From: an uncultured Candidatus Poseidoniales archaeon
Lineage (GTDB): Archaea; Thermoplasmatota; Poseidoniia; Poseidoniales; Thalassarchaeaceae
Direction of reading: 5' to 3'
DNA: 64,000 nt
Assembly: GCA_964576865.1 (NCBI GenBank)
Contig: CAZNVK010000001.1
Coordinates: 50,697-114,696, forward strand
In this document: positions 28,270 through 63,996 of the stretch, piece after piece
Layout: the number at the start of each line of letters is the position of its first letter
Position numbering within the stretch: the first letter of the stretch is position 1
The notes under the pieces: generated by a model
What the model saw: only the letters and a program-made list of their open reading frames with translations
The model's database searches: none
Told to the model about the DNA's origin: nothing
Program-made: the position numbers and the translations under genes

Positions 28270-31104
28270 TCACGGGTCTTCATCATCTCGCAAGCCTCGG
28301 CCTAGAGAATCCAATCTATCATCAAAGTCATCCAAATCGAGGACGATATTCTCTGGATGAATGATATCGCTCTCCTGCAATTGATCCGCCATCTCGATTG
28401 CGTCAAGAATCGTATCCTCTGCCAAAGCCTCATCCAGAACATCGCCGGCTTGTCCCACCACCTCAGCCTCAGGCCCAGCAGCCACGGCGCGCGAGTGGTC
28501 GCCCGATTTCTCCATGAATTCTGCTCGGAAGGAAACAACATCGGTCGTAGGGCTCTCAATGATTTCAGGTACTTCTTCATCGCTGCCCTCGAACTTTGCC
28601 ATCCAATCTCCGACCTCTTCGACGACGACTTCTGGATTCTGCTTGCGGTAATACTCGCGTTCCGCCTCGATTCGATGGCGTACCGCCAGCGCAACAGCCA
28701 CTGCACCCACAATGCTGACAGCGACGATTAGAATCGTATTCAACCATCTTTGCATGAAATTCGAGAAGGCCGACGGTCCCTCTGGCTCAACGGGCCCCGT
28801 CGGCCCCACCCCGTCGATTGCAGCCGAGTGCTCGACCAGGTGCACCACAGAGGGGTCGCGCACCGAGCGCACCTCGACCGTAAGAACCGCCGAGGCAGCA
28901 ATCGGAACTTCCTCAGGGATATCCATCCAGACCTCGAATTCCACAGAGCCTCCAACCGGCACATCGAGTAACTCAAATGATCGCGCATCGCCACCGCTCG
29001 AATGAGTATCTGCGCCCTCCGGAGCGACCACACCAAATCCGGTAAAATCGGTGCACTCAACACTTACCACCAAGCCATCGGGGCTATTGCCGACATTGCG
29101 CATCTGCCATAATCCGGTCAGGCGTCCATCAGCGATTTCCGCGTCCGACCTGATTACCTCCCAAGCGTGAACGGCCGCGATTGTCACCTCGAAACTGACC
29201 TCTGCTGGAACCCAACCGTCGACCTCCACCTCGATCCTCACCTCGCCGGTCAGTCCGGCCTGCAGACCAACCGCTGTCCAAGCGTTGACATCGATTCCGT
29301 GAACCGTCTGTCCCGGTCCGAGGAATCTCGTGTATTCGGAAATATTGACGACTAGCCAGTCTGGTTGGTCGACCAAACTGAGATTGAAGAGGAATGCTGC
29401 ATCACCGGTATTCTCGATGAACAGCTCCACGAGGCAGGAGTCACCGGGAGCGACGTCGAACATGCAATCGACATTGGTCAAGCCGAGTTCTCCGCCGGAG
29501 CGCGGCACGATGCTGACCGATTGATTGACGCGTTTGACCTCCTGCATTCCCTCCGCCCAGACTTGAATCATCATATCGAGGCGACCAACGGTGCGAATCG
29601 GAGACTGGACCTGCATACGAACCGTCGCGCTCTCGCCGGGAGACATATCTTCCAGCCCAGCCTTATCGTAAACGATCGCTGTCCACCCGTCGTGAGCAAA
29701 GGAATGGTCTGGCACCTCGATGGGCGAGCCGTTGGCATCAACTGCGGCGATGTTGATTCCGAGCGAATTGAGGGAATTACCGGCATTCATCAGAACCACC
29801 TCCAAGTCGACGATGCCTCCTGGGTCAATCGAGGCGCTGCCACCAGCTTCGACAACCTCGACCCCCTTCCATTCGCCGTAGCGCATCGAGAAATTCCACC
29901 AATCCTCATTGCCGGTGTGGTCGCCGACCAATCTGACGCTGAAATCGTGAATTGAATCGGCAAGCGGCGCCCCAACAATAACCTCAGGCGATGTCACCGA
30001 GAATTGCATCCACTGGACCTCATCACTCGGCGCATCGAAGGAATGGCCAACGCTCGGGTCTGCGGGATGAACCCAAGACACCTCCCAGCCTGCGGGCCCA
30101 TCCACCTGAATCATAGCAGTCGTATCCACCTCAGCGAGATTGGTGAAATTGACACCGACTCCAATCGTGGAGGCGGGGTCGATATTGAACACCGAACCCG
30201 AATCGACCCCGAACTCAACGCCGGGATCCTCGTACATCCAAGGATAGGTCAGCCCGTCTGCGACCGAGGTGTTGAACACGGTGTGGTCAGCCCATTGCTG
30301 TAGTTCGAGCGTGCGCGTAGCGTTGATTCCCCCAGTCGAAGGCAATCCGACCGATGGAATCCCGGTGATCGCGACATGAATCACGCAAGCTGCCAGGTAA
30401 GTCCCCTGAATCGAAGGGTGGCTATCGTCAGCGGCGTAAAGGTCTGAGAAAATCGTACCATCTGAGGTAGGATTGGTCAGCGAATCGAAGATATTCCAGT
30501 GGGCGAGTCCGACGGGGGCGACGAAGACAGGTCGGTCGGGCGTCGAGAGATTTTCCGCGTATGCCAGATAACCGGTCTTGAGATGGTGTTGCATGGTAGG
30601 AAAATCGGGGAATCTCCATTGATTATTGGAATCACCATTTCGATAACCCCAAGTCATCATGAAGAAGATTTCACCACCTCGTGCTTCGACGAGTTCGTCG
30701 ATGATCTGGGCGCCCTCGTAACTCTCTTGCCAGTAGGTCGAACTCGTAGGGAATCCAGGAACTTGACTCTGATCCTGCAAAATGACGTAATCATGTGGTT
30801 CTCGAAGCCTATCGTACCACTGAGTGCCTTCGGTCTCCGCCTGCTCACCATGCCACGACAGACGCTTACCTCCACTGGTCAGAGCTTGGACGTCAGGGGC
30901 ATGGTCAGAGGCGTCGAGAAGATTATTCAAACGCACGTGCAATTGGTTGTTTGAGGTGTATGAATTACCCAACATCACGATGTCGAGGGCCGGCTGATCA
31001 TGGCTCGACTCGGCCCTCGCACTGTCCTCAAAAAGCATGCTCGGCGAATGCAAAGAAGCCAGAATTAGGAATACGAGGATTACACCCGTTTGGCACCCTC
31101 GCAT
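28270..31104 (-). CDS. Giant secreted membrane-anchored protein with N-terminal SGNH/GDSL-like hydrolase domain (944 aa)
   Basis: Signal peptide GVILVFLILASLHSPS. SGNH block I-like IVMLGNSYTSNN (Ser) and block V-like DDSHPS (DxxH). Long beta-rich acidic region. C-terminal TM ILIVAVSIVGAVAVALAV, then an acidic tail. Confidence 0.6.
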   Translation of the reverse strand: MRGCQTGVILVFLILASLHSPSMLFEDSARAESSHDQPALDIVMLGNSYTSNNQLHVRLNNLLDASDHAPDVQALTSGGKRLSWHGEQAETEGTQWYDRLREPHDYVILQDQSQVPGFPTSSTYWQESYEGAQIIDELVEARGGEIFFMMTWGYRNGDSNNQWRFPDFPTMQHHLKTGYLAYAENLSTPDRPVFVAPVGLAHWNIFDSLTNPTSDGTIFSDLYAADDSHPSIQGTYLAACVIHVAITGIPSVGLPSTGGINATRTLELQQWADHTVFNTSVADGLTYPWMYEDPGVEFGVDSGSVFNIDPASTIGVGVNFTNLAEVDTTAMIQVDGPAGWEVSWVHPADPSVGHSFDAPSDEVQWMQFSVTSPEVIVGAPLADSIHDFSVRLVGDHTGNEDWWNFSMRYGEWKGVEVVEAGGSASIDPGGIVDLEVVLMNAGNSLNSLGINIAAVDANGSPIEVPDHSFAHDGWTAIVYDKAGLEDMSPGESATVRMQVQSPIRTVGRLDMMIQVWAEGMQEVKRVNQSVSIVPRSGGELGLTNVDCMFDVAPGDSCLVELFIENTGDAAFLFNLSLVDQPDWLVVNISEYTRFLGPGQTVHGIDVNAWTAVGLQAGLTGEVRIEVEVDGWVPAEVSFEVTIAAVHAWEVIRSDAEIADGRLTGLWQMRNVGNSPDGLVVSVECTDFTGFGVVAPEGADTHSSGGDARSFELLDVPVGGSVEFEVWMDIPEEVPIAASAVLTVEVRSVRDPSVVHLVEHSAAIDGVGPTGPVEPEGPSAFSNFMQRWLNTILIVAVSIVGAVAVALAVRHRIEAEREYYRKQNPEVVVEEVGDWMAKFEGSDEEVPEIIESPTTDVVSFRAEFMEKSGDHSRAVAAGPEAEVVGQAGDVLDEALAEDTILDAIEMADQLQESDIIHPENIVLDLDDFDDRLDSLGRGLRDDEDP

Positions 31105-44418: not shown

Positions 44419-44457
44419 CTCACAAAAATGTGGGTAATGTAGAAATCAAAAATGCTA

Positions 44458-47325
<2,868 letters not shown>

Positions 47326-47343
47326 GCATTCATCTTTCTACTT

Positions 47344-47364
47344 GCCCACACAATTTTTGTGGGC
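47344..47364 (+). other. Hairpin with internal T5 run (gcccac-acaattttt-gtgggc) in the 23S-5S spacer; possible processing/termination element
   Basis: Inverted repeat read directly in the sequence between the rRNA genes. Confidence 0.35.
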
Positions 47365-47416
47365 CTCTGTCCAATAGGCAGATTCGATTCTATCACCAAA
47401 CACATTCGAAGGAGAG

Positions 47417-47541
47417 TTGTGCACGGCCACAGCGGAGGGGTAATACCCGGTCCCATATCGAACCCGGAAGTCAAGTCCTCCTGCGTCGTACTCTGTACTG
47501 TGGTGCGAGAGCCCACGGGAACTTGCGTCGCTGTGCCACTC
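47417..47541 (+). rRNA. rrf: 5S ribosomal RNA
   Basis: GCACGGCCACAGCGGAGGGG...CCCGGTCCCATATCGAACCCGGAAGTCAAG...GTGCGAGAGCCCACGGGAACTTGCGTCGCTGTGCCAC. Conserved 5S helices; about 90 nt downstream of the 23S. Ends approximate. Confidence 0.85.
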
Positions 47542-55608: not shown

Positions 55609-58386
55609 TCACTGGCGCTTTGCATCGATTTGGCGCGCCAAGAAGGAGACGACGTCGAGGATTTCGAAGTCGTGTCGCGGATCGCCTTCGAACTTCAGGC
55701 ACTCGAAGTGACTGACGCACTTCGGGCAGCTGGTCAGCATGATGTCCGCGCCCGTCGCCTTCACCTCATCGAAGCGCTCGAGGCGCAGGGTGCGACTATT
55801 CTCATTGCACGACATCATGCTCGAAACACCGCAGCAAAGGGCATCTTCGCCGGAGTGCTCCATCTCAACAAGGTCCACTCCGTCGACCGCGCGAACGAGG
55901 TCGCGCGGCTCATCATAGATATTCATCTGACGACCGAGCCGACAAGGATCGTGGTAGGTCACAGTGACGTCTTCAGGTGTGGCGAGGTCCATGTCGAAAC
56001 CGTTTTCGATCAGGAATTCAGTCGTGTGCATGACCTTCATGTCATCGAGTTCGTAATCCATCGCAAAGGTTCGGAAGCACTCAGCGCATGAGGTCACGAG
56101 GGTATCGATTCCGCTCTCTCCGAGCTTCTTCTGATTGTATGCCTTCAGCTTCTCGAAGACTTCCGTCATTCCTTGCCACTTCTGGTCGTGTCCGCAGCAC
56201 TTGAGGAAGTCTCGTCCGAGGTATGTGACGTCCTTGTTCATCTCGTCGAAGATAGTGAAAGCGGCTGTCGTGGTCTCTCCGAGGTTCATTTCTCCCTCGT
56301 TGACATGGCTGAAAATCATCTCTTGGTCGATGTAGTCAACGCAGCCTGGGTAGTAACCAACGCTACTGTCTATCGGGTACTGCTCCACCGGAATGAACTC
56401 CGCGTCGGCGTCCTCTTCAGCCTCTGCCGCGAGGACGGCTTGGAGGAGAGTGTGTGGTATTTCGGCGGCTGGAGGGCCGCCGACCATCAGGTTGCGGCGA
56501 ATGTCGACGTATGAGTCGTAATCGACTAGCTGCGGGCAAGCGTTCGTGCAAGCGGTGCAGGTCAGACAGGAGTATAGTGGAACCCCGTCATCTTCGTTAT
56601 TCCAGGTGTTGTAGATGATGTTGAGTTTGTCACCTGCATTGAATAGACGAACTGGGCAGGCGTCGTCGCACAGGTCGCAGCCGTAGCACTTGTTCATCTC
56701 CCACTCATAGCCTCGTGCCATGCTGCGCATCAGCATGTAGACGATTGCTCCTACTCCGAGACAAGGAATGAACATCGAGTAGGTCAGCTTGGCGTCGAGG
56801 CTCTTTGGGTTCTTCTTGTAGGTTGGATTGTCGAAGGTCATCGCCTCGAGGTCGGTTCCGGAGGGGAGGTTGTCACGTAGGGGTGTGGCGCCTGTTGCGT
56901 CCAGGAGCAGGGGCTGGAAGGCGGTGGCTGAGAAGTCGGTGATCATCGTCACCGTCTCATTAACACCACTCGAGGTGACACTGTACTTCAGATTGTAATT
57001 GCCTGGTGCTAGCTTGAGAGTCGTACTGTCGCACTCACCATCCGCTGACCACAGGACCTTTCCTGCGTCGTTGCTGATGCTGAGTGCTTGTGAATGGCTA
57101 CCAGCTGCCCGGACTGTTGTGCGGAAGTTGCAGCCGATGTCGACGAAGACCGAGGAGAGTCCGAGGTCTTCGATGTGCATAACATCGGACCAACTCTGGC
57201 TAATCTCGCTCAAATCTGAAGTTCCCTCGTATTCGATGGCTTGTCCGGCCGCGTTGCGACCGCTATCCATATCGGCGTGGCCGTTGACTCCCTCGAAGTC
57301 GATGACTACCGATTGAGTCGGTTGGAAGATTCCCCAATTCGACCAATGTTCTGCAGGTAAGGCACACCACCTCGCGGGGTCTTCATTTTCGTCTAAAGTA
57401 CTCCAGACCCCGAGGTCGGAAGATTCTGTGAAGGTCATGCAGAGGTCTCCCCACTCGTCCCAATCATCGCCTTTGGCGTCGTAGACGAGTGTATCGGCGG
57501 GCTGGCCACGCATGTCTTCGAGATCTTCGATCTCATCCATAGCACCCAGTCCGCCGTAATCCCAGAAGCCTCCCTCGTAGATTGGCCAGGTAACAGCTGA
57601 AATCATCACAGCGAGAATGAGGGAGCCAATCGCGACTTGCTTACCCATCGCAGGTGTAAGTCGCGCGCCGATGGAATTCACCAAGAACCATCTGACTGCG
57701 AAGAATAACACGGCGAAGATGAAGATTCCAGTGAGGATCCACGGCACAGCATTGAACACTTCAGCAGTCCACGGTGCCTGTCTACCACAATCTAGGACAT
57801 GCTTTGAGTTCGCCCAACAATAATCTGTTCGATCTTTGGCATATAATTCAAGGAAGATATTGATTGAAAATACAGAGATGAACCAGACGTGGGCGAGGTA
57901 GACCGCACCAGCAGTTGCGAACCAAGGGTCCTCGACAGGCCTCTTCTCGCGCCCACCCAAGAACGGCGGAAGCGCGAGTATACCGACTGGTATTCCAGTC
58001 AGGAAGGCACCCCACCATGCAGCGTTCCACGAGATTACCGGGGCACCCAAGAAGTCGCCTATCGGGCCGGCTGGAAGCACGAATTGCGGCAAATATTCGC
58101 CCCATCGCAGATATCCATACGAGAATAGAACATACCAGTCAGGGAATACGAAGCCGGCCTGTGCAAACGGGTCCGCCGCGCTGTGCAGCGGCGGCGGAAT
58201 CAACCAGCAATAGAAAGCAAGAACCATCATCATGGCTGCAAAGATGATCGAATCGCGAAGCACTTCCGTCGGCCAAAAAGCGTGCCCGACAAAGACTCGC
58301 TTGCGCTCGTGCTCCGCTTCAAGCAGCGTACTCTTCTCTCGGACGTAAGTATCCGCAATCCGCCCGAATCTATCGATCATTCCCAT
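55609..58386 (-). CDS. Fusion protein: cytochrome b C-terminal (subunit IV-like) membrane domain + extracytoplasmic domain + TM helix + cytoplasmic HdrD/DsrK/GlpC-like module (2x[4Fe-4S] + two CCG domains)
   Basis: N-terminal FVFPDWYVLFSYGYLRW matches the PEWY motif of the cytochrome b C-terminal domain / SUIV, with several TM helices. Residues ~250-520 are an acidic soluble region, followed by TM LTYSMFIPCLGVGAIVYMLM. Then CYGCDLCDDACP and CLTCTACTNACP. Then two CCG domains (C...KCCGHD...CAEC and C...LCCGVS...CPKC). Confidence 0.7.
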   Translation of the reverse strand: MGMIDRFGRIADTYVREKSTLLEAEHERKRVFVGHAFWPTEVLRDSIIFAAMMMVLAFYCWLIPPPLHSAADPFAQAGFVFPDWYVLFSYGYLRWGEYLPQFVLPAGPIGDFLGAPVISWNAAWWGAFLTGIPVGILALPPFLGGREKRPVEDPWFATAGAVYLAHVWFISVFSINIFLELYAKDRTDYCWANSKHVLDCGRQAPWTAEVFNAVPWILTGIFIFAVLFFAVRWFLVNSIGARLTPAMGKQVAIGSLILAVMISAVTWPIYEGGFWDYGGLGAMDEIEDLEDMRGQPADTLVYDAKGDDWDEWGDLCMTFTESSDLGVWSTLDENEDPARWCALPAEHWSNWGIFQPTQSVVIDFEGVNGHADMDSGRNAAGQAIEYEGTSDLSEISQSWSDVMHIEDLGLSSVFVDIGCNFRTTVRAAGSHSQALSISNDAGKVLWSADGECDSTTLKLAPGNYNLKYSVTSSGVNETVTMITDFSATAFQPLLLDATGATPLRDNLPSGTDLEAMTFDNPTYKKNPKSLDAKLTYSMFIPCLGVGAIVYMLMRSMARGYEWEMNKCYGCDLCDDACPVRLFNAGDKLNIIYNTWNNEDDGVPLYSCLTCTACTNACPQLVDYDSYVDIRRNLMVGGPPAAEIPHTLLQAVLAAEAEEDADAEFIPVEQYPIDSSVGYYPGCVDYIDQEMIFSHVNEGEMNLGETTTAAFTIFDEMNKDVTYLGRDFLKCCGHDQKWQGMTEVFEKLKAYNQKKLGESGIDTLVTSCAECFRTFAMDYELDDMKVMHTTEFLIENGFDMDLATPEDVTVTYHDPCRLGRQMNIYDEPRDLVRAVDGVDLVEMEHSGEDALCCGVSSMMSCNENSRTLRLERFDEVKATGADIMLTSCPKCVSHFECLKFEGDPRHDFEILDVVSFLARQIDAKRQ

Positions 58387-58401
58387 GTCAAAGACCTCCG
58401 A

Positions 58402-59271
58402 TCAGTGCGGCTCCGCAATACCTTGCACCCAGACGATGAATAAATGCGCCAGAATCAGCGCCGTCACGACGACGGGCAGAATGAATACGTGCAGGAAATA
58501 CATACGCGTAACCGTCTGTCCGGAGAGCGATGTTCCCGCGAACATCGCGGTCGCGACCCACCCTCCGATGAGGGGGGTCGAGTTCGCCATGTTGATTCCG
58601 ATTGTAGCGGCTCCGAAAGCCAAACTATCCCAAGGCAGGAGGTAGCCCGAGTAACCGAAGAAGATAGTGAAGAACATCAGGGCGACGCCGATTAGCCAGT
58701 TGAGCTCGCGGGGGTTTCGGTATGCGCCAGTGAAGTACACGCGACACATGTGAAGGAAGACAGCGGCCACCATGAAGTGCGTCGTCCAGTGGTGTATCGA
58801 GCGGATGATGTAGCCGAATGGAAGCTGAGTCATGATGAACTCCATCGATGAATAGGCAGGGGTTGGGTCGCCTTCTCCTCCCGGCACGTAATAGAGTCCG
58901 AGGACCGTGCCGGTGATGACGAGAATCACGAAGGCGAGGAAGGAGATTCCACCCAAGCAGTAGAGTGGATACCAATACCAAATGATTCGCAGTTTATACT
59001 TCTCAGCGTGCGTAAGAGGCATTTGTCGGTGCACGCTGTAGTACGCATCCCGGCTCATGCCCCAGTAATCTTGGATGCGAAAGCGCGTGTCGAGCCACGA
59101 GAATGCCCAGAGGAAGGATTTCTCCGCCAAGCCCATGCTGCCAGCGCTCGTCTCGACCGCTCGAAGGATATCCTTGCGGGGCATTTCGTCCCGCTCCTTG
59201 CGCAGAGTGAAAGCGACGAGGACGACGACGAGGGCGATGAAGAGCCAAAGGAACCAGAATTGCAGCATCAT
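58402..59271 (-). CDS. petB: Cytochrome b, N-terminal heme-binding domain (b6-like, split cytochrome b)
   Basis: Heme-ligand histidines in RSIHHWTTHFMVAAVFLHMCRVYFTGAY and RMYFLHVFILPVVVTALILAHLFIV. Four TM helices. GYSGYLLPWDSLAFGAATIG matches the conserved cytochrome b cd-loop. Confidence 0.85.
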   Translation of the reverse strand: MMLQFWFLWLFIALVVVLVAFTLRKERDEMPRKDILRAVETSAGSMGLAEKSFLWAFSWLDTRFRIQDYWGMSRDAYYSVHRQMPLTHAEKYKLRIIWYWYPLYCLGGISFLAFVILVITGTVLGLYYVPGGEGDPTPAYSSMEFIMTQLPFGYIIRSIHHWTTHFMVAAVFLHMCRVYFTGAYRNPRELNWLIGVALMFFTIFFGYSGYLLPWDSLAFGAATIGINMANSTPLIGGWVATAMFAGTSLSGQTVTRMYFLHVFILPVVVTALILAHLFIVWVQGIAEPH

Positions 59272-59277
59272 CTCACC

Positions 59278-60132
59278 TCAGTCGCAGTATGTGTACCAAT
59301 CTTTGAAGTCCGGCAGTGCTTCAATGGTATCGCCCGTGATGACCCACGGGATGAGTGGTAGTCCGACCGGAGCAGGACCTCCGGTTCGGCGGATGCCGAA
59401 GTAATCGAATTCCGCTCCGGTCGAGCGGTTTCGACTTCGATTCTTCTCGATCGCGGTCGGGTCAAATCGGCTCGAGTGACAGATGCAGAACAATTTGTTC
59501 CCACCCGCGTCGACAGCGCCCGGCGTCCATTGGTCATTGGTGAAATCGTTCTGGACCAATTGCCAGCCGGGGATGCAGCATAGGTGGGTGCAGCGAGAGA
59601 ATATGACAATCAGATTGTCGTGGATCGAGAGCGACGCATAGTCGGGATTCTCATCCATCTCGTATCCGCTACCGACGTACTTTCCACTCTCGGTGTAGCC
59701 GTCCATGAATTGGAAGCGGGGTGAGTTGGTACTCGGAGCCGAGGTCGCGTTCTCGGCGTGTGGGACGTAGACGACATTGACCGGCAGTCCGGACCAGACG
59801 CCTTGAGCACCAGACATACCGGTCGGGCTGGCCTCGGCAGCGGCGACGAAAGCTGAGTATGACATTGGCTCGAGGTGTCGGTCACCATACCAAGCTGAGT
59901 CCTCAGCACCGGTAGGTACCCAGAAACGGACGGCGGTGTCGCCGCTCGAGGAATCGGCTGTTCCCATCAGAAGAGAAGCGAAGCCGATGCTGCCGAGGCT
60001 AGCCATGGTGATGACTCCCGCCGCGGTGTTGAATGAATAACGCATGAACTCGCGGCGGTCGATGACGGGATTTGATTGAGAAACCTCGTCATCGGCTCCA
60101 GGAAGTGGACGTAGTCGGAATCTTCGCGCCAT
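59278..60132 (-). CDS. petA: Rieske [2Fe-2S] iron-sulfur protein with twin-arginine signal
   Basis: Tat-like DRREFMRYS followed by a hydrophobic anchor. Rieske boxes CTHLCC and CICHSS. 284 aa. Confidence 0.8.
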   Translation of the reverse strand: MARRFRLRPLPGADDEVSQSNPVIDRREFMRYSFNTAAGVITMASLGSIGFASLLMGTADSSSGDTAVRFWVPTGAEDSAWYGDRHLEPMSYSAFVAAAEASPTGMSGAQGVWSGLPVNVVYVPHAENATSAPSTNSPRFQFMDGYTESGKYVGSGYEMDENPDYASLSIHDNLIVIFSRCTHLCCIPGWQLVQNDFTNDQWTPGAVDAGGNKLFCICHSSRFDPTAIEKNRSRNRSTGAEFDYFGIRRTGGPAPVGLPLIPWVITGDTIEALPDFKDWYTYCD

Positions 60133-60135
60133 GAA

Positions 60136-60585
60136 TCACACCTCGTATTGTTGCCATCCTTCTGTGTCATTAGGAGTGATGTACTTGTTCCGCCTATGTT
60201 TGACGACTACCACATCTGGCATGACGAATCTCAGGTAGACGATTCCCATCAAGATGACCGTCAGCAGCGTCATCGCCAAATGGAACGATAGACGCTGCTG
60301 GTCCCAGTGGTTGAACAATCCGTAAGAGAGAGTTCCAGCCCAGAACAGGGTCCAGAGGATTCCCCAGAGTGCGAATACGACGACGAGGGCGGATTCGCCG
60401 GAAGGCGAGAGGCTGGCGCGGACGATAGTACCGGCTTCGGGTTCGTTGAAGACTCCATGGTCAACCGCTGCGATGTAATTTTCCTCGCTCAGGTCAACTC
60501 CGGTTAACGCATCGCGTGCGTCCTCAACACTTACTTTGCCAGACTTGACCTCGCGCAGGAGTTTCATAACGACGTCGTCTTTCAC
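60136..60585 (-). CDS. Small membrane protein with N-terminal soluble helical domain and two TM helices
   Basis: TMs LVVVFALWGILWTLFWAG and LAMTLLTVILMGIVYL. Overlaps the next gene by 4 nt, consistent with an operon. Confidence 0.45.
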   Translation of the reverse strand: MKDDVVMKLLREVKSGKVSVEDARDALTGVDLSEENYIAAVDHGVFNEPEAGTIVRASLSPSGESALVVVFALWGILWTLFWAGTLSYGLFNHWDQQRLSFHLAMTLLTVILMGIVYLRFVMPDVVVVKHRRNKYITPNDTEGWQQYEV

Positions 60586-61397
60586 AGTTGGTCACCCCTT
60601 CGTAGATGCTTGATGCGCAATTTGAGTAGGTTGCTTCGGCCTTCGTAGTGACGGGAAAATCCGTAGCGTAGGAAGAGTCCGCAAAAGAGGATGACGAGAA
60701 TCACTGCGCCGAAGCCGAGCAGCCCAAGCCAGTGGGCTCGCAGGGCAGCTCCCATATGATGCAGGTCGATGTGGGTTTCCGCTGGCGCGGGAGGCTCGAT
60801 CTCTCCGTTTCCGCTGAAGATTGTCCGACTATTGCCGTTATCGGTTCCCTCGTCGACCGAGGTTGTCAGACGATTCCAGCGGTCGAGGTCAGAGGGTGCG
60901 TGGTCACCGTTGACAGCGTTTCCTGAGAGAGAAATGGTGACTACGCCGGTGCCTTCTGACGGGGCCGTCCAGATGATGAGCCAAGTCCTGTCGGCGGTTG
61001 AGCCGCCAGAGCCAGCATGGGTCAGGCTGGTAGAATCGCCCTCCCAGTTCTGGACTTGGCTCTCGTAGCCTTCGCCGCCGGCGAGTGAGCCTGCACTGAC
61101 TCGCAGTGCGAATCCTCCGGTGGTTGATTGAGTGTCGATTTCAGGGCCACCGATAAGTTGGATCTTCATGGCGTATGTCGTGCCTGCACTGTAATGGTAA
61201 GGTACACCGTCGAGGATGACGGTGACTGAATTATCTGGCAGTTCCGAATGGCAGGTGCATCCTGCCAGTGCTACGTCTCCCTCGTCATCCTCGTCCCCTC
61301 CGATGCCGGTGGAGTAGGCTTGGCTTGAACCTGCGAGAAGAAGAGCGAAACAAGCCAGTACGAGTAGCCTTTGCGAGGTCGAGTGATGCGTCTTCAT
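60582..61397 (-). CDS. Secreted membrane-anchored protein of the Rieske/cyt b cluster (signal peptide, beta-rich domain with CxCH, C-terminal TM)
   Basis: Signal LLVLACFALLLAGSSQA. C-terminal TM LGLLGFGAVILVILFCGLFL. Start set at MKTHHS; the ORF extends to 61445. Confidence 0.5.
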   Translation of the reverse strand: MKTHHSTSQRLLVLACFALLLAGSSQAYSTGIGGDEDDEGDVALAGCTCHSELPDNSVTVILDGVPYHYSAGTTYAMKIQLIGGPEIDTQSTTGGFALRVSAGSLAGGEGYESQVQNWEGDSTSLTHAGSGGSTADRTWLIIWTAPSEGTGVVTISLSGNAVNGDHAPSDLDRWNRLTTSVDEGTDNGNSRTIFSGNGEIEPPAPAETHIDLHHMGAALRAHWLGLLGFGAVILVILFCGLFLRYGFSRHYEGRSNLLKLRIKHLRRGDQL

Positions 61398-61547
61398 CCT
61401 TTGACCTCTTTCGACGAAGCATTCCACCCGACATCGGGCTATCAAGGTTTCAGTTTGACCCCTACGGGGTCCCTCTCTGTGACGCCCCTCGGGTGGGGGG
61501 TTCGTAACCTGCGAAACCTCAAACGAATCAGCGTTCTCGATGGTGTG

Positions 61548-61853
61548 ATGGCAGGTCCGGTTTGGAAGAATATCTACCGCCTCAGCGATGAGCAGATTGC
61601 CAGCCTCGATGAGGCGGAGGACAAGATGGAAATGATGGATATCAACGGGGCGGAGGAGATACTTCTAGCGATGTTGGAGGTCGATGCGAATTGTGTTCCG
61701 GTACTCAATAATCTCGCGCATATGAATGGACGCTACCTCTCTGATTTTGAGAAAGCTGTCGAGTATTATGATCGAGTTCTAGAAATTGAACCTGACAATG
61801 CTTGGGCGCGAGATGAGCGGAGACGATACCAGCGTTATCTAACGTATGATTGA
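61548..61853 (+). CDS. Small TPR-like helical protein (about 101 aa)
   Basis: C-terminal NNLAHMNGRYLSDFEKAVEYYDRVLEIEPDNAWA is TPR-like. Start set at the internal Met so it does not overlap the upstream gene. Stop overlaps the downstream ATG (ATGA). Confidence 0.4.
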   Translation: MAGPVWKNIYRLSDEQIASLDEAEDKMEMMDINGAEEILLAMLEVDANCVPVLNNLAHMNGRYLSDFEKAVEYYDRVLEIEPDNAWARDERRRYQRYLTYD

Positions 61854-62854
61854 GCCCTCCTCGCAACCAACATCGCATCCAATCTTCGACTCGTAAGAGG
61901 AGTCCGCGACCCTCAGTTTCAAGGCGCGCCCGCGACGGGGCTCGACTCGTGCACGAGGGCGCGATACTGATTGCAGGAGTCGGTGGGCTCGGTTGCATCT
62001 GGGCCGACGCCGCCCATCGCGAGTGCGATGGCTTGGCCGACCTACTGCTGATCGATGCTGACGAGACCTCATTCCGCGGTTCAGGCCAAGCCCACTGCCT
62101 ACACCTCGACGCGGTCGGTGATGGCAGCGGTGCCGCTGCTCTACCCCCACTCGCCGCTCACCGGCTCAGCGAAGGTTTCTCCTCCCTCGATCCATTGTTG
62201 GAGAAGGCTGAGTTGGTCTTCATCATGGCAGGATTGGGTGGTGGAACAGGATCGGGTGCCGCCAATGAATTAGCTCGTCTCGCGAGAGCGCGAAACTGCT
62301 TGGTTCTGAGTGTCGCTGGCCTACCATTTGCTGAACAACCATTGCGCTGTGCGATAGCGAACGCTGCTCTGCCCGCGCTCGAGGAGCAGTCCCATGTCTG
62401 CATACGCGTGAGCATGGAGAGACTGGCATGGTACGCCCGAGCCAGAGATGCCGATTGGCAGCAAGGCTCGGGCTGGATCCAAGATCTTGTCGAGGGTCTG
62501 GTGACGACCCTTGCGAAAGTAGGCAAATTGAATCTCGATTTGATGGATCTTCGAACGGTGGTAGAGCATTCCGGCGAAGCCACTTTGATAGTCGGAACCG
62601 GTACTGTCGTCGACCCATCTGGTGTGGTGGAAGTTGCTCGCCGCTCGCCGCTCGCAGAGATAGATGTCTCTGGAGCCAAGGGCTGTCTAATCCAAGTAGA
62701 GGGCGGTCCGGATATGACTCTAGCTCACCTAAACCTCCTCAGCGAATCCTTGGTCGACAGTTTACATCCGAATTGTCAAGTAATCCTCGGCGCCAGAGCC
62801 AGTGATGAGATGGTTGGAAGGTTGCGATTGGTAGCGGTTGTCAGCGGCCTTTGA
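61850..62854 (+). CDS. Divergent FtsZ/tubulin-superfamily GTPase paralog
   Basis: Tubulin signature GGGTGSG (FIMAGLGGGTGSGAAN). T7-like NLDLMDLRTV. C-terminal ISGAKG...VEGG fold pattern as in FtsZ. The T1 G-box is degenerate (GVGGLGC instead of GGGGxN). Basic N-terminal extension. Confidence 0.65.
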   Translation: MSPPRNQHRIQSSTRKRSPRPSVSRRARDGARLVHEGAILIAGVGGLGCIWADAAHRECDGLADLLLIDADETSFRGSGQAHCLHLDAVGDGSGAAALPPLAAHRLSEGFSSLDPLLEKAELVFIMAGLGGGTGSGAANELARLARARNCLVLSVAGLPFAEQPLRCAIANAALPALEEQSHVCIRVSMERLAWYARARDADWQQGSGWIQDLVEGLVTTLAKVGKLNLDLMDLRTVVEHSGEATLIVGTGTVVDPSGVVEVARRSPLAEIDVSGAKGCLIQVEGGPDMTLAHLNLLSESLVDSLHPNCQVILGARASDEMVGRLRLVAVVSGL

Positions 62855-62915: not shown

Positions 62916-63257
62916 TTGGTTAAGCGGATACCTCTTGCGATGTACATGCCCAAACCACGCAAGGCCTCACGTGGTAAGCATCGTTGGATAGGAATCGAGT
63001 ATACCCAAGAGTCTCTGTCTAGGCCGGAAGTCGAGAAAAAGTTAGCTGAAAATTTGGCTGCAATCGAGTTCCGATTATTTGATTGTAAGAATTCAGCCAA
63101 ATCTACACTCGGAATAATCAAAATCGCACTAGAGGATTATGATTACGCGCGCACCGCACTTGAAACGGCTGAGGGCGTTGAAACCAGGACCTCGTCGGGT
63201 AAGATTCGTCTGGTGAGGGAGAGATTGGGTCTTCCTCGCCCGGTCAGAAAGCGATGA
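62916..63257 (+). CDS. rnp2: RNase P protein component 2 (Pop5/RNP2)-like
   Basis: N-terminal RKASRGKHRWIGIEY resembles the Pop5 KRRYIAFEI motif; later LGIIKI and SGKIRLVRE segments fit the Pop5 pattern. 113 aa. The assignment is pattern-based. Confidence 0.5.
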   Translation: MVKRIPLAMYMPKPRKASRGKHRWIGIEYTQESLSRPEVEKKLAENLAAIEFRLFDCKNSAKSTLGIIKIALEDYDYARTALETAEGVETRTSSGKIRLVRERLGLPRPVRKR

Positions 63258-63996
63258 GTAATTCACCAACATCATCTGTTTGACCGAGTTGAGCGTCATC
63301 GATCAGCTGCAAGGCTCCTGATTCTTCCAAACCCACGATTCGTACGGTAGTTGCTCCACTTTCACACACAACGCCTCTTGAGAGGGAGCGAGCCATTGCC
63401 CGCCAGGACTCGCTGCGCAATTGCTCAGGAGTTGTTTTGGGGATGGGTGGGTTTGAATCGAATAGCGAGGCGATCGCGGCATCGACTCTCTGAAACACCT
63501 CGCTCGCCTTGATTTCACCGACGGTCTCTGACCAGCCTGCAGTCGAGACTCCATCTAATTCTCTAGGCCTGCGGTTCAGGCCAACGCCGATCCTCACCCT
63601 TCTGTCGAGTGAGCTTGATTCGACGAGGATTCCACCTGCTTTTCTTCCCTCGAAAATGAGATCATTTGGCCATTTCACCTCCATCGAGAGGGTATCTGCT
63701 AGACTCGCGCCAACCGCGGTCTGAATCAAGCCAGGAGAGTATAGATCGAGGATTGAGGGTTCGAGGCTCCAAGTTGCTGTCAGATCTTCATCGGAAGAAA
63801 CCCAAGCCGAGCTCTGTCTTCCTCTACCCGAATTCTGAACTCCTGCTCGGAGTCTCAGCCAGCCTTCTCCAGAAAGATCTCTGGCTGCGTCCATCGTCGA
63901 GTCACACTCTTTGATGAAGGATTCTGGTCGGCCTGAAGCTGGCTTCCAGATTGCCATGACGTAGAGGGTATCATGCCCTATTCGTTGATTGACCAA
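63244..63996 (-). CDS. birA: Biotin--protein ligase (BirA catalytic domain family)
   Basis: GRGRQSSAW and KWPNDL catalytic motifs. The start Met lies 4 nt from the window edge, so the true N-terminus could lie outside the window. Confidence 0.7.
   Translation of the reverse strand: MVNQRIGHDTLYVMAIWKPASGRPESFIKECDSTMDAARDLSGEGWLRLRAGVQNSGRGRQSSAWVSSDEDLTATWSLEPSILDLYSPGLIQTAVGASLADTLSMEVKWPNDLIFEGRKAGGILVESSSLDRRVRIGVGLNRRPRELDGVSTAGWSETVGEIKASEVFQRVDAAIASLFDSNPPIPKTTPEQLRSESWRAMARSLSRGVVCESGATTVRIVGLEESGALQLIDDAQLGQTDDVGELLIAF

What the first reader, a model, noticed from the sequence alone, without database searches (positions are those of the whole stretch)
61548..62854. Divergent FtsZ/tubulin-like paralog translationally coupled to a small TPR protein
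The 334-aa protein keeps the tubulin signature GGGTGSG and a T7-like NLDxxD loop, so it is probably polymerisation-competent. Its T1 glycine box is degenerate (GVGGLGC) and it has a basic N-terminal extension. Its ATG overlaps the stop of a 101-aa TPR protein (ATGA). It is neither a canonical FtsZ1/FtsZ2 nor obviously a CetZ, and may be an uncharacterised cytoskeletal pair.
Basis: partly seen in the sequence, partly recalled or inferred. Interest (0 to 1): 0.55.

Follow-up and report, generated by a model that had tools for sequence, protein, structure and literature searches.

The report
Tail-less archaeal FtsZ2 with TPR partner
Marine Group II archaea, among the most abundant archaea in the ocean, keep next to a small TPR-protein gene a stripped-down, fast-evolving copy of the cell-division protein FtsZ (most likely their FtsZ2) that has lost the tails normally used to anchor it, so their division ring may be built differently from that of model archaea.

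Summary
The window comes from a Marine Group II archaeon (Poseidoniales, MGIIb). The FtsZ-like protein is 301 aa and starts at GTG 61949. The 33-aa "basic N-terminal extension" is a chance open frame, and the "ATGA" overlap is wrong: that ATG is out of frame. There is therefore no translational coupling. Each gene has its own TATA-like box about 25-35 nt upstream of its start codon.

The pair itself is strongly conserved. 262 species-level genome stretches encode the family, and all named ones are Poseidoniales. In 79 of the 80 loci examined, a 101-aa TPR gene lies directly upstream. dN/dS is about 0.02 for both genes.

The protein has the full FtsZ fold. The T4 and T7 loops are conserved. The loops that contact the guanine base are altered. 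It has no N-terminal extension and no C-terminal tail, so it lacks the SepF-binding motif.

Profile scoring, published trees and the gene complement of these genomes all point the same way. It is most likely the order's highly diverged FtsZ2, alongside a canonical FtsZ1. In the sister group MGIII, FtsZ2 is still canonical and still has the usual RHH gene upstream; here a TPR gene occupies that position. What the TPR protein does is inferred, not shown.

The parts
61513..61528 (+). Promoter-like box upstream of the TPR gene (GAAACCTCAAACGAAT, about -35 to -20 from the ATG)
   Evidence: A purine-rich stretch followed by a CTCAAAC/TTTCAAAC/CTAATAC motif recurs at the same distance in relatives. 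AT content peaks at 0.71 at -35..-31. Promoter function is inferred, not shown.
61548..61853 (+). Gene for the 101-aa TPR partner protein (ATG start, TGA stop)
   Evidence: Exactly 101 aa in 78 of 79 loci, with an invariant C-terminus EPDNAWARDERRRY.RY..YD. Pfam TPR_1 is hit in 20 of 20 members. The profile matches consensus TPR proteins in the PDB. AlphaFold predicts five helices after an unstructured N-terminal peptide. dN/dS is 0.018.
61850..61948 (+). Spurious N-terminal extension of the mechanical ORF (TTG 61850); non-coding spacer
   Evidence: It is not conserved in any relative. The frame is closed in L013, L014, L009, L006, L001 and L004. pLDDT is below 50.
61910..61948 (+). Conserved 39-nt module just upstream of the FtsZ start, holding a TATA-like box AGTTTCAAGG at 61915-61924 (-34 to -25)
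   Evidence: The same module forms the whole 39-nt spacer in related MGIIb loci. Other clades have ATAATC, CTAAAC, TTTAAC or TATAAAC at the same distance. AT content is 0.80 at -30..-26 against 0.33-0.46 downstream of the box (-25..-1). A leaderless transcript is inferred.
61949..62854 (+). Gene for the core-only FtsZ (301 aa, GTG start, TGA stop), most likely a derived FtsZ2
61976..61996 (+). T1 loop GVGGLGC
   Evidence: G46 is kept in 84 of 85, G48 in 85 of 85 and C49 in 83 of 85 family members. Archaeal FtsZ has GxGGAG[NC]N here.
62234..62260 (+). T4 tubulin signature LGGGTGSGA
   Evidence: The GGG.G.G glycines are kept in 84-85 of 85 members. The fourth position is T in 50, M in 32 and V in 2.
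62531..62554 (+). T7 loop NLDLMDLR (catalytic Asn/Asp/Asp)
   Evidence: N228, D230 and D233 are invariant in 85 of 85 members.

Best explanation
The locus encodes the Poseidoniales (Marine Group II) version of archaeal FtsZ2, reduced to the globular core, together with a lineage-specific 101-aa TPR protein.

Shown:
- The protein is 301 aa and starts at GTG 61949.
- It has the complete FtsZ fold.
- The phosphate-binding T1 and T4 loops and the catalytic T7 residues are conserved across the family.
- By alignment, two guanine-contacting positions are replaced: T6 Asn to Met/Leu, and H7 Asp to Ser. The stacking H7 Phe is replaced by Trp.
- It has neither the N-terminal extension nor the C-terminal linker and tail found in every canonical archaeal FtsZ compared here. 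That tail carries the GID-type SepF-binding motif.
- The TPR gene sits directly upstream in all relatives examined. This is the position where FtsZ2 genes of other archaea, including the sister order MGIII, carry an RHH (CopG/ParD-like) gene.
- Each of the two genes has its own TATA-like box about 25-35 nt before its start codon.

Inferred:
- The protein still binds a nucleotide and forms head-to-tail polymers with polymerisation-dependent NTPase activity.
- It works in cell division alongside the canonical FtsZ1 and SepF of these organisms.
- Having lost its tail, it depends on the TPR protein, or on co-assembly with FtsZ1, for positioning, membrane attachment or regulation.
- The TPR protein's conserved N-terminal peptide and its TPR groove are candidate contact sites.
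- Both mRNAs are leaderless and are transcribed from separate promoters rather than being translationally coupled.
For: Identity and fold:
- Pfam Tubulin and FtsZ_C both score above their cut-offs.
- 49 of the 50 PDB sequence hits are FtsZ (best E = 3e-26). None is CetZ, TubZ or tubulin.
- The AlphaFold model (pLDDT 75.8) matches FtsZ structures over about 300 residues, with TM 0.8-0.87 normalised to the target. All top 50 matches are FtsZ.

Family and distribution:
- 262 stretches in species-representative genomes encode the family. The best 80 are all MGII, apart from one record labelled Acidimicrobiaceae, probably a mis-binned contig.
- In a search of 1.8 billion proteins, family members score 223-360 bits. 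The best canonical FtsZ scores 163 bits or less.

Start codon and spacer.

Motif conservation.

Missing tails:
- The family has 0 flanking residues at either end.
- Every canonical group has a median of 12-32 residues at the N-terminus and 25-113 at the C-terminus.
- The GID motif and the role of the tail are taken from PMC8178401 and PMC12583498.

Affinity to FtsZ2:
- All 11 family members score 162-171 bits against three FtsZ2-type clade HMMs, against 135 bits for the FtsZ1 HMM and 146 for the bacterial HMM.
- The clade labels were checked. The FtsZ1 clade holds M. jannaschii FtsZ1 and Odinarchaeota FtsZ1. Two of the three FtsZ2-type clades were checked by their upstream RHH gene, and one Methanomassiliicoccales contig carries one paralogue of each type.
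- As a control, CetZ-like and tubulin sequences mostly show no such preference, so the result is not an artefact of flatter HMMs.
- In the published UFBoot tree the family is sister (support 70) to the second FtsZ of MGIII, inside a Thermoplasmatota group, on a stem of 1.87 substitutions per site.

Complement:
- Poseidoniales MAGs list 1-3 FtsZ homologues, mostly 2, plus SepF.
- The Poseidoniales protein EHR75921.1 is FtsZ1-type: 351 bits against 264-305.

Sister group:
- MGIII FtsZ2 keeps GGAGNN and its tails, and has an RHH gene directly upstream.
- None of the 80 other archaeal FtsZ loci has the TPR-family gene.

Selection: dN/dS is 0.017-0.027 for both genes.
Against: - The family sits on a very long branch. 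Only one of the three published trees makes it sister to MGIII FtsZ2, and only with support 70. The other two place it beside a Methanocella sequence (83) or a Nanoarchaeota group (58).
- My own neighbour-joining tree could not resolve its position.
- Pairwise identity to FtsZ1 and to FtsZ2 is about equal, at 27-34%.
- I could not scan a complete Poseidoniales genome. One MAG (UBA196) lists three FtsZ homologues, so a separate canonical FtsZ2 is not excluded.
- I did not verify that the second protein Pende et al. list for the same genome as EHR75921.1 (EHR75994.1) belongs to this family.
- The substitutions in T2, T3, T6 and H7 could weaken or abolish GTP binding.
- There is no direct evidence of any kind for contact between the TPR protein and the FtsZ. 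Separate promoters weaken the operon argument.
- The promoter and leaderless inference rests on sequence pattern alone.
Confidence: 0.6

Rival explanations
1. It is a third, lineage-specific FtsZ paralogue and not the FtsZ2 orthologue. It arose in the Poseidoniales ancestor and, together with the TPR protein, was recruited to a role outside division, such as cell shape or membrane remodelling, much as CetZ is. Canonical FtsZ1 and FtsZ2 would carry out division.
For: - The stem is very long and its placement is unstable in the published trees.
- It has no RHH neighbour and no tail.
- One MAG lists three FtsZ homologues.
- NCBI annotates the family as 'hypothetical protein'.
Against: - The FtsZ counts listed for the five Poseidoniales entries are 2, 1, 3, 2 and 2.
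- No canonical Poseidoniales FtsZ2 surfaced in the published data sets I could read or among the best hits.
- The family groups with, or next to, MGIII FtsZ2 in two of the three trees. Its profile affinity is to FtsZ2-type clades, and the control was passed.
Confidence: 0.2
2. It is a non-polymerising FtsZ derivative. It would act as a regulator or cap of FtsZ1 filaments, or as a nucleotide-independent scaffold, with the TPR protein as cofactor.
For: - Several nucleotide-contacting loops have changed. T2 is DADE instead of NTDxQ. T3 is GxGAAALP instead of GLGAGGNP. T6 Asn is replaced by Met/Leu. H7 Asp is replaced by Ser.
- Both terminal extensions are lost.
Against: - T7 N228, D230 and D233 are invariant in 85 of 85 members, and the T4 glycines in 84-85 of 85. 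There would be little reason to conserve the catalytic loop of the neighbouring-subunit interface in a protein that never polymerises.
- The whole fold is retained.
- Purifying selection is strong.
Confidence: 0.12
3. The protein is 334 aa with a functional basic N-terminal extension. It is translationally coupled to the TPR gene through an overlapping start and stop.
For: In this window alone the frame is open from TTG 61850, which overlaps the TGA stop of the TPR gene as TTGA.
Against:
- The extension is absent or closed by stop codons in relatives, including those 96-97% identical.
- The conserved start is ATG or GTG in 79 of 80 loci.
- The extension is predicted to be disordered.
- A promoter-like module lies inside the supposed coding extension.
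Confidence: 0.03

Closest known systems
Archaeal FtsZ2 (for example Haloferax volcanii HVO_0581 and OdinFtsZ2)
   Same: - It has the FtsZ fold, with the Tubulin and FtsZ_C domains.
- The T4 and T7 loops are conserved.
- It shows the best profile affinity to FtsZ2-type clades and lies in the FtsZ2 region of published trees.
- It coexists with an FtsZ1 and SepF.
- A small gene lies directly upstream.
   Different: - It has no C-terminal linker or tail. In H. volcanii and Odinarchaeota the tail binds SepF (PMC12583498).
- It has no N-terminal extension.
- The upstream gene encodes a TPR protein and not an RHH_1 protein.
- The T2, T3, T6 and H7 residues have changed.
- The stem branch is about 1-1.9 substitutions per site.
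FtsZ2 of Marine Group III (OIR21729.1; locus L095), the sister order
   Same: It is the nearest relative in the published UFBoot tree. It belongs to the same class, Poseidoniia.
   Different: MGIII FtsZ2 is canonical. It has T1 GGAGNN, a 20-aa N-terminal extension, a C-terminal tail ending SSVPMIN, and a double-RHH gene directly upstream. It is only 27-34% identical to the window protein.
Archaeal FtsZ1 (M. jannaschii 1FSZ; Odinarchaeota 9V7V; Poseidoniales EHR75921.1)
   Same: It has the same fold. PDB E-values are about 1e-25.
   Different: - The family scores about 30 bits lower on the FtsZ1 profile than on FtsZ2-type profiles.
- FtsZ1 has a long N-terminal extension and a tail.
- Poseidoniales already have a canonical FtsZ1.
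CetZ and other archaeal tubulin-like paralogues
   Same: They belong to the tubulin superfamily and are archaeal.
   Different: - There are no CetZ hits among the PDB matches.
- CetZ-like sequences score only 15-29 bits on the family profile, against 123-145 bits for canonical FtsZ.
- The family has the FtsZ_C domain.
BtubA/B with Bklc (BtubC) of Prosthecobacter
   Same: A tubulin-superfamily polymer is encoded next to a TPR protein. That TPR protein binds the filaments and links them to membranes (PMC5372463). This is a functional precedent for a TPR adaptor.
   Different: - The organisms are bacteria, the polymer is a true tubulin homologue, and the TPR protein is much larger and resembles kinesin light chain.
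- No homology is implied.
- For the MGII pair the interaction has not been tested.
FtsZ-like families FtsZl-1/FtsZl-2 (Pfam Tubulin_2; Makarova and Koonin 2010)
   Same: They are divergent prokaryotic FtsZ relatives with conserved gene neighbours.
   Different: - Tubulin_2 scores only 14.4 bits against a cut-off of 27.
- Those families lack FtsZ_C (PMC9871819), whereas this one has it.

Membership tests
FtsZ/tubulin superfamily (FtsZ branch) | Tubulin/FtsZ GTPase domain followed by the FtsZ C-terminal domain | tested here: met
   PF00091 scores 56.3 bits (cut-off 33) and PF12327 scores 56.6 bits (cut-off 27). The best Foldseek matches are all FtsZ, with TM 0.8-0.87.
FtsZ/tubulin superfamily (FtsZ branch) | Tubulin signature GGGTG[ST]G (T4) and catalytic T7 N-x-D-x-x-D | tested here: met
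   The T4 glycines are kept in 84-85 of 85 members, with the fourth residue T, M or V. N228, D230 and D233 are kept in 85 of 85.
Canonical cell-division FtsZ (NCBIfam TIGR00065 equivalog) | Score at or above the curated cut-off of the equivalog model | tested here: not met
   124.8 bits against a cut-off of 295.2.
Canonical cell-division FtsZ (bacterial or archaeal) | C-terminal linker plus conserved tail peptide that binds the membrane tether (GID-type motif for SepF in archaea) | tested here: not met
   The protein ends at the last strand of the core (..LVAVVSGL). There are 0-9 residues beyond the core in the 11 members measured, with a median of 0, and total length is 299-310 aa in 85 members. 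The motif is taken from PMC8178401.
Canonical cell-division FtsZ | Guanine-contacting residues (T6 Asn; H7 Phe and Asp) | tested here: not met
   By alignment, Asn is replaced by Met (58) or Leu (27), Asp by Ser (78 of 85), and Phe by Trp (85 of 85). This rests on alignment only; no structure with ligand was examined.
Archaeal FtsZ2 | Phylogenetic placement in the FtsZ2 clade | tested here: inconclusive
   Profile affinity to FtsZ2-type clades is 30-36 bits higher than to FtsZ1, and the control was passed. The family is sister to MGIII FtsZ2 with UFBoot 70 in one published tree and unstable in the other two. My neighbour-joining tree was unresolved.
Archaeal FtsZ2 | RHH_1 (CopG/ParD-like) gene in the immediate neighbourhood (usual but not universal; PMC9871819) | tested here: not met
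   A TPR gene lies upstream in 79 of 80 loci. An RHH gene is present upstream of MGIII, Methanomassiliicoccales and P0134 FtsZ2. HHalign of the TPR family against the RHH family gives probability 10%.
Archaeal FtsZ2 | Binding to SepF through the C-terminal tail | not testable with these tools
   The tail is absent, so binding of that type is not expected. This needs biochemistry.
Archaeal FtsZ1 | Placement with M. jannaschii and Odinarchaeota FtsZ1; long N-terminal extension | tested here: not met
   The FtsZ1 profile gives the lowest score, 135 bits. There is no N-terminal extension. Poseidoniales have a separate FtsZ1.
CetZ | Sequence and profile similarity to CetZ rather than FtsZ | tested here: not met
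   There is no CetZ among the 50 PDB hits. CetZ-like sequences score 15-29 bits on the family profile.
FtsZl-1/FtsZl-2 (Tubulin_2) | PF13809 above its cut-off; no FtsZ_C domain | tested here: not met
   PF13809 scores 14.4 bits against a cut-off of 27, and FtsZ_C is present.
TPR repeat proteins (the partner) | TPR helix-turn-helix repeats | tested here: met
   TPR_1 is matched in 20 of 20 members, best E = 1.7e-7, although the window protein alone is just below the cut-off (26.5 against 27.8). The profile hits consensus TPR proteins at E as low as 1e-37. The model has five helices. Foldseek's top matches are two- to three-repeat TPR proteins and Fis1, with weak E-values of 0.01-0.1.

The most novel reading that the evidence does not exclude
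After the split from MGIII, the MGII lineage rebuilt the FtsZ2 half of the archaeal divisome. On this reading, the 101-aa TPR protein is a new kind of dedicated FtsZ tether or assembly factor that replaces the tail-SepF link. The core-only FtsZ2 has changed its nucleotide specificity, since its guanine-reading residues are lost while its catalytic residues are kept. SepF in these cells would then have to act through FtsZ1, the reverse of what is seen in Haloferax and Odinarchaeota.
Probability: 0.2. Interest if true: 0.7.

Novelty: new variant of a known kind. Interest (0 to 1): 0.5.

Why it matters
Marine Group II archaea are among the most abundant planktonic archaea. None has been cultured, so their cell biology is known only from sequence.

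Current models of archaeal FtsZ-based division come from Haloferax, Methanobrevibacter and Odinarchaeota. In those models FtsZ2 is tethered by SepF through its C-terminal tail, and ftsZ2 is usually preceded by an RHH gene.

Here a whole order has an FtsZ2 descendant with no tail, an altered nucleotide pocket and a different, strictly conserved small partner. If the inference holds, it is a natural experiment on two questions: which parts of FtsZ2 are dispensable, and how a tail-less FtsZ is positioned. It also provides a short, testable pair of proteins (301 and 101 aa) for heterologous work.

There is a practical point too. The family is annotated 'hypothetical protein' in NCBI records, and gene callers often give it a false N-terminal extension.

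Tried and rejected
1. **Names from cluster look-ups.** I tried to obtain names for the nearest canonical relatives. Two of the three calls returned no organism names.
2. **Peptide search for H. volcanii FtsZ1/FtsZ2.** I searched with published antibody-peptide sequences.
3. **My own neighbour-joining tree.** It used 168 sequences and score-based distances. The family is monophyletic on a long stem, but the backbone is unresolved and the midpoint root falls on the family stem. I did not use it for placement.
4. **Is the TPR protein a remnant of the RHH protein?** It has the same position and the same size. HHalign gave probability 10% (P = 0.003) over residues 9-37 only. The profile and the model show an all-helical two-repeat TPR protein. 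I rejected the idea as unsupported.
5. **Structure prediction of the TPR protein with an alignment of relatives.** I used the single sequence instead, which gave pLDDT 71.
6. **A second FtsZ, SepF, or Cdv/ESCRT-III genes in the window.** None was found.
7. **Literature on FtsZ in Poseidoniales or MGII.** No paper in the library discusses it. The family appears only, without comment, in supplementary trees and alignments.
8. **Could the HMM preference be an artefact of flatter FtsZ2 profiles?** I tested this with CetZ-like and tubulin controls and rejected it.
Full report
**1. What is in the sequence**

The window is archaeal. It carries a 23S and a 5S rRNA gene. The closest relatives of the gene in question are MAGs named Poseidoniales, Thalassarchaeaceae or Marine Group II. 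The best genome match is 97% identical, and matches to MGIIb-O1 Thalassarchaeum are 88-90% identical.

The mechanical ORF 61850-62854 (+) starts with TTG and is 334 codons long. The only start that overlaps the stop of the upstream ORF is TTG, read as TTGA.

The product carries Pfam Tubulin (56.3 bits) and FtsZ_C (56.6 bits), both above their cut-offs. It reaches only 124.8 bits on the curated FtsZ equivalog TIGR00065, whose cut-off is 295.2.

The upstream ORF, 61548-61853, encodes a 101-aa protein with TPR matches. No other FtsZ homologue is present in the 64-kb window.

**2. The true gene start**

An alignment of 24 family members shows that conservation begins at residue 34 of the 334-aa ORF. 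Most database homologues are 301-304 aa and begin M-x-E-G. The longer predictions carry unrelated extensions.

In nine fetched loci, and then in 80 species-representative genome loci:
- The conserved start position carries ATG in 57 loci and GTG in 22.
- The length from that start is 301-307 aa.
- In the relatives that are 96-97% identical (L013, L014), the upstream frame is closed after 16 and 24 codons with no start codon.

AlphaFold gives residues 4-32 a pLDDT below 50. The CDS is therefore 61949-62854 (GTG start, 301 aa). The 'basic N-terminal extension' is a chance open frame.

**3. The link with the TPR gene**

- The TPR gene lies directly upstream on the same strand in 79 of 80 loci. 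In the 80th, the contig starts inside the FtsZ gene.
- The spacer is 34-39 nt in 73 loci and 109-119 nt in the six closest relatives. It is 95 nt in the window.
- The last 39 nt of the long spacers are the same module that forms the whole spacer in related MGIIb loci.
- That module holds an A/T-rich box: TTTCAAGG here, and ATAATC, CTAAAC, TTTAAC or TATAAAC in other clades. AT content is 0.80 at -30..-26 from the start codon, against 0.33-0.46 closer to the start codon (-25..-1).
- The TPR gene has a similar box, GAAACCTCAAAC, at -35..-24.

This is the geometry of an archaeal TATA box in front of a leaderless mRNA. That statement rests on established knowledge of archaeal promoters, and its function here is inferred. 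The two genes are therefore a strictly conserved tandem pair with separate promoter-like elements. They are not translationally coupled.

Both genes are under strong purifying selection. Where dS is not saturated, dN/dS is 0.018 for the TPR gene and 0.017-0.027 for the FtsZ gene.

**4. The wider neighbourhood**

The neighbourhood is also conserved across the order:
- Upstream and divergent from the TPR gene is a five-gene cluster: a CCG/Fer4 fusion, cytochrome b, two proteins with no significant Pfam match (284 and 287 aa) and a DUF7318 protein.
- Downstream are a small ORF of 85-116 aa (not called in every locus), a PrmA-BPL fusion on the opposite strand, and then rpoH-rpoB-rpoA.

**5. The protein**

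*Fold and family.*
- The best solved relatives are bacterial FtsZ and M. jannaschii FtsZ1, at E about 1e-26. No CetZ, TubZ or tubulin passes E = 1e-3.
- The AlphaFold model (pLDDT 75.8, pTM 0.74) superposes on FtsZ structures over about 300 residues.

*Motif conservation in 85 distinct family members.*
- T1 is GVGG[LIV]GC.
- T4 is GGG[TMV]GSG, with glycines kept in 84-85 of 85.
- T7 is NLDLMD[LM]R, with Asn and both Asp residues kept in 85 of 85.

*Differences from archaeal and bacterial FtsZ, by alignment.*
- T2 is DADE, not NTDxQ.
- T3 is GxGAAALP, not GLGAGGNP.
- The T6 Asn is replaced by Met or Leu.
- In helix H7, the stacking Phe is Trp (85 of 85) and the guanine-binding Asp is Ser (78 of 85).

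*Termini.* The protein begins four residues before the first strand and ends at the last strand. Every canonical group I compared has a median of 12-32 residues before the core and 25-113 after it. The tail that carries the archaeal GID-type SepF-binding motif (PMC8178401; PMC12583498) is therefore absent.

**6. How far the family extends**

An exhaustive profile search of 1.84 billion representative proteins gives family-type hits of 223-360 bits, all about 300 aa long (P0121, P0123, P0124, P0126). The best full-length, single-core canonical FtsZs then reach 163 bits or less.

One of the divergent clusters (P0123/P0276) is only 42% identical to the window protein. It nevertheless sits in the same gene neighbourhood, and its TPR partner is still 71% identical. 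The family therefore consists of fast-evolving orthologues within a single order.

The genome scan found 262 stretches in species-representative genomes that encode the family. The 80 retained are all MGII, apart from one contig labelled Acidimicrobiaceae, probably mis-binned.

**7. FtsZ1, FtsZ2 or a third paralogue?**

*Building and labelling the clade profiles.*
- One clade holds M. jannaschii FtsZ1 and Odinarchaeota FtsZ1 (PDB 9V7V), so I labelled it FtsZ1.
- Three other clades are closer to one another than to FtsZ1.
- In two of them, the genes I could inspect have an RHH gene directly upstream (L010, L093). The two RHH proteins are homologous to each other (37% identity, E = 4e-25).
- The Methanomassiliicoccales contig L093 carries one FtsZ of each type.
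- An RHH_1 neighbour is the published hallmark of ftsZ2 (PMC9871819; 'parD' in PMC8178401).

*Scoring the family.*
- All 11 family members tested score 162-171 bits on the FtsZ2-type profiles, 135 bits on FtsZ1 and 146 bits on the bacterial profile. Bacterial FtsZ shows the opposite preference.
- Divergent controls (CetZ-like, other archaeal tubulin-like proteins, tubulin, Btub) mostly show no such FtsZ2 preference. The result is therefore not explained by flatter profiles.

*Published trees.* The supplementary trees of Santana-Molina et al. 2023 contain six members of this family, for example MBJ28927.1.
- They form a fully supported clade on a stem of 0.99-1.87 substitutions per site.
- In the UFBoot tree the clade is sister (support 70) to the second FtsZ of MGIII. 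It lies inside a group of second-type FtsZs from Methanomassiliicoccales and other Thermoplasmata.
- In the other two trees it sits next to a Methanocella sequence and then MGIII (83), or next to a Nanoarchaeota group (58).

*Gene complement.*
- The same data contain a canonical Poseidoniales FtsZ, EHR75921.1. It is 389 aa, with an N-terminal extension of about 55 aa and a tail ending NRHIEFVN. It scores as FtsZ1: 351 bits against 264-305.
- Pende et al. list 2, 1, 3, 2 and 2 FtsZ homologues, plus SepF, for five Poseidoniales genomes.

*Conclusion.* Together these results favour the reading that Poseidoniales carry FtsZ1 plus this protein as their FtsZ2 descendant. The residual doubt comes from three things. 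The branch is long. One MAG lists three homologues.

**8. The sister group**

MGIII FtsZ2 (OIR21729.1, and the metagenome locus L095 at 70% identity) has the canonical GGAGNN loop, both terminal extensions and a double-RHH gene ending immediately before its start. None of the 80 other archaeal FtsZ loci from metagenomes contains a homologue of the TPR protein. Of those 80, 69 have at least 450 nt of upstream sequence, and 17 of the 69 have the RHH gene upstream.

The loss of the tails, the burst of substitutions and the exchange of the upstream gene are therefore all specific to the MGII stem lineage.

**9. The TPR partner**

- It is exactly 101 aa in 78 of 79 loci and has 39 invariant positions, including the C-terminal EPDNAWARDERRRY.RY..YD.
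- Its profile hits consensus TPR proteins.
- The single-sequence model has an unstructured N-terminal peptide followed by five helices.
- The closest folds are small two- to three-repeat TPR proteins and Fis1, at weak E-values.
- The N-terminal peptide has an alternating conserved pattern: P4, W6, N8, Y10, L12.
- It has no detectable relationship to the RHH proteins (HHalign probability 10%).
- I saw no obvious hydrophobic transmembrane stretch when reading the sequence; no prediction tool was run.

**10. Mechanism**

*Shown.* This is a complete FtsZ core with conserved phosphate-binding and catalytic loops. It lacks both extensions. It is always next to a conserved small TPR protein. Both genes are under purifying selection.

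*Inferred.* The protein polymerises head to tail with nucleotide hydrolysis and takes part in division with FtsZ1 and SepF. Because the usual tail-SepF link is impossible, the TPR protein or co-assembly with FtsZ1 supplies positioning or regulation.

A TPR protein that binds a tubulin-family polymer and links it to membranes has a precedent in Bklc/BtubC of Prosthecobacter (PMC5372463). That is an analogy, not homology.

The altered guanine-contacting residues leave open a change in nucleotide preference, or weaker binding.

**11. Novelty**

The sequences are public and appear in published trees. I found no description of the family, of its missing tails or of its TPR partner. NCBI records call it 'hypothetical protein'. 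It is best filed as a new variant of a known kind: a core-only, fast-evolving FtsZ2 derivative with a new partner.

Noticed in passing
window 44446-47539: The 23S and 5S rRNA genes are present with no 16S gene anywhere in the 64-kb window, so the rRNA operon appears to be split.
   Followed up: no
window 55609-61445 (- strand): A five-gene cluster lies divergent from the TPR gene: a CCG/Fer4 fusion (925 aa), cytochrome b (289 aa), a 284-aa protein, a DUF7318 protein (149 aa) and a 287-aa protein. It is conserved in every relative examined and looks like a respiratory membrane complex.
   Followed up: partly
window 62916-63257 (+): A conserved small ORF (113 aa here, 85-116 aa in most relatives examined) lies just downstream of the FtsZ gene. 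It has no Pfam hit and no PDB sequence hit.
   Followed up: partly
window 63244-63996 (-), cut by the window end: This biotin/lipoate ligase-family ORF is the C-terminal part of a 442-462-aa PrmA-type methyltransferase-BPL fusion seen in relatives. rpoH-rpoB-rpoA follow it in those relatives.
   Followed up: partly
window 6658-12429 (+), 28270-31104 (-), 18080-20233 (-), 23624-25627 (-): These very large ORFs (1923, 944, 717 and 667 aa) have no Pfam match at E <= 1e-6.
   Followed up: no
window 3075-5627 (+); locus L010 9603-12050: An 850-aa AAA_16 + TPR (STAND-like) protein is encoded in the window. A similar 815-aa protein lies next to the FtsZ2 gene of an unrelated Thermoplasmatota-like contig. 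This is probably coincidence.
   Followed up: no
window 61854-61909 and loci L013-L019: Only the window's own sub-clade has an extra 56-80 nt between the TPR stop and the conserved 39-nt module. In L016-L018 the insert contains a run of eight T, which could be a terminator for the TPR gene.
   Followed up: no
proteins P0125, P0127: Altiarchaeales encode proteins of 744-826 aa that contain two FtsZ cores in tandem.
   Followed up: no
locus L052; MAH41214.1 in the published tree: Public records labelled Acidimicrobiaceae and Alphaproteobacteria carry MGII FtsZ genes. These are probably mis-binned contigs.
   Followed up: no
locus L012 (P0123/P0276 lineage): In one Thalassarchaeaceae lineage the FtsZ core has diverged to 42% identity, while its TPR partner stays 71% identical and is 112 aa as called. 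The two partners are evolving at very different rates in this lineage.
   Followed up: partly
locus L093 517-1641 and 4001-5032: A Methanomassiliicoccales contig carries an FtsZ1-type gene and an RHH-FtsZ2 pair only about 2.4 kb apart.
   Followed up: partly
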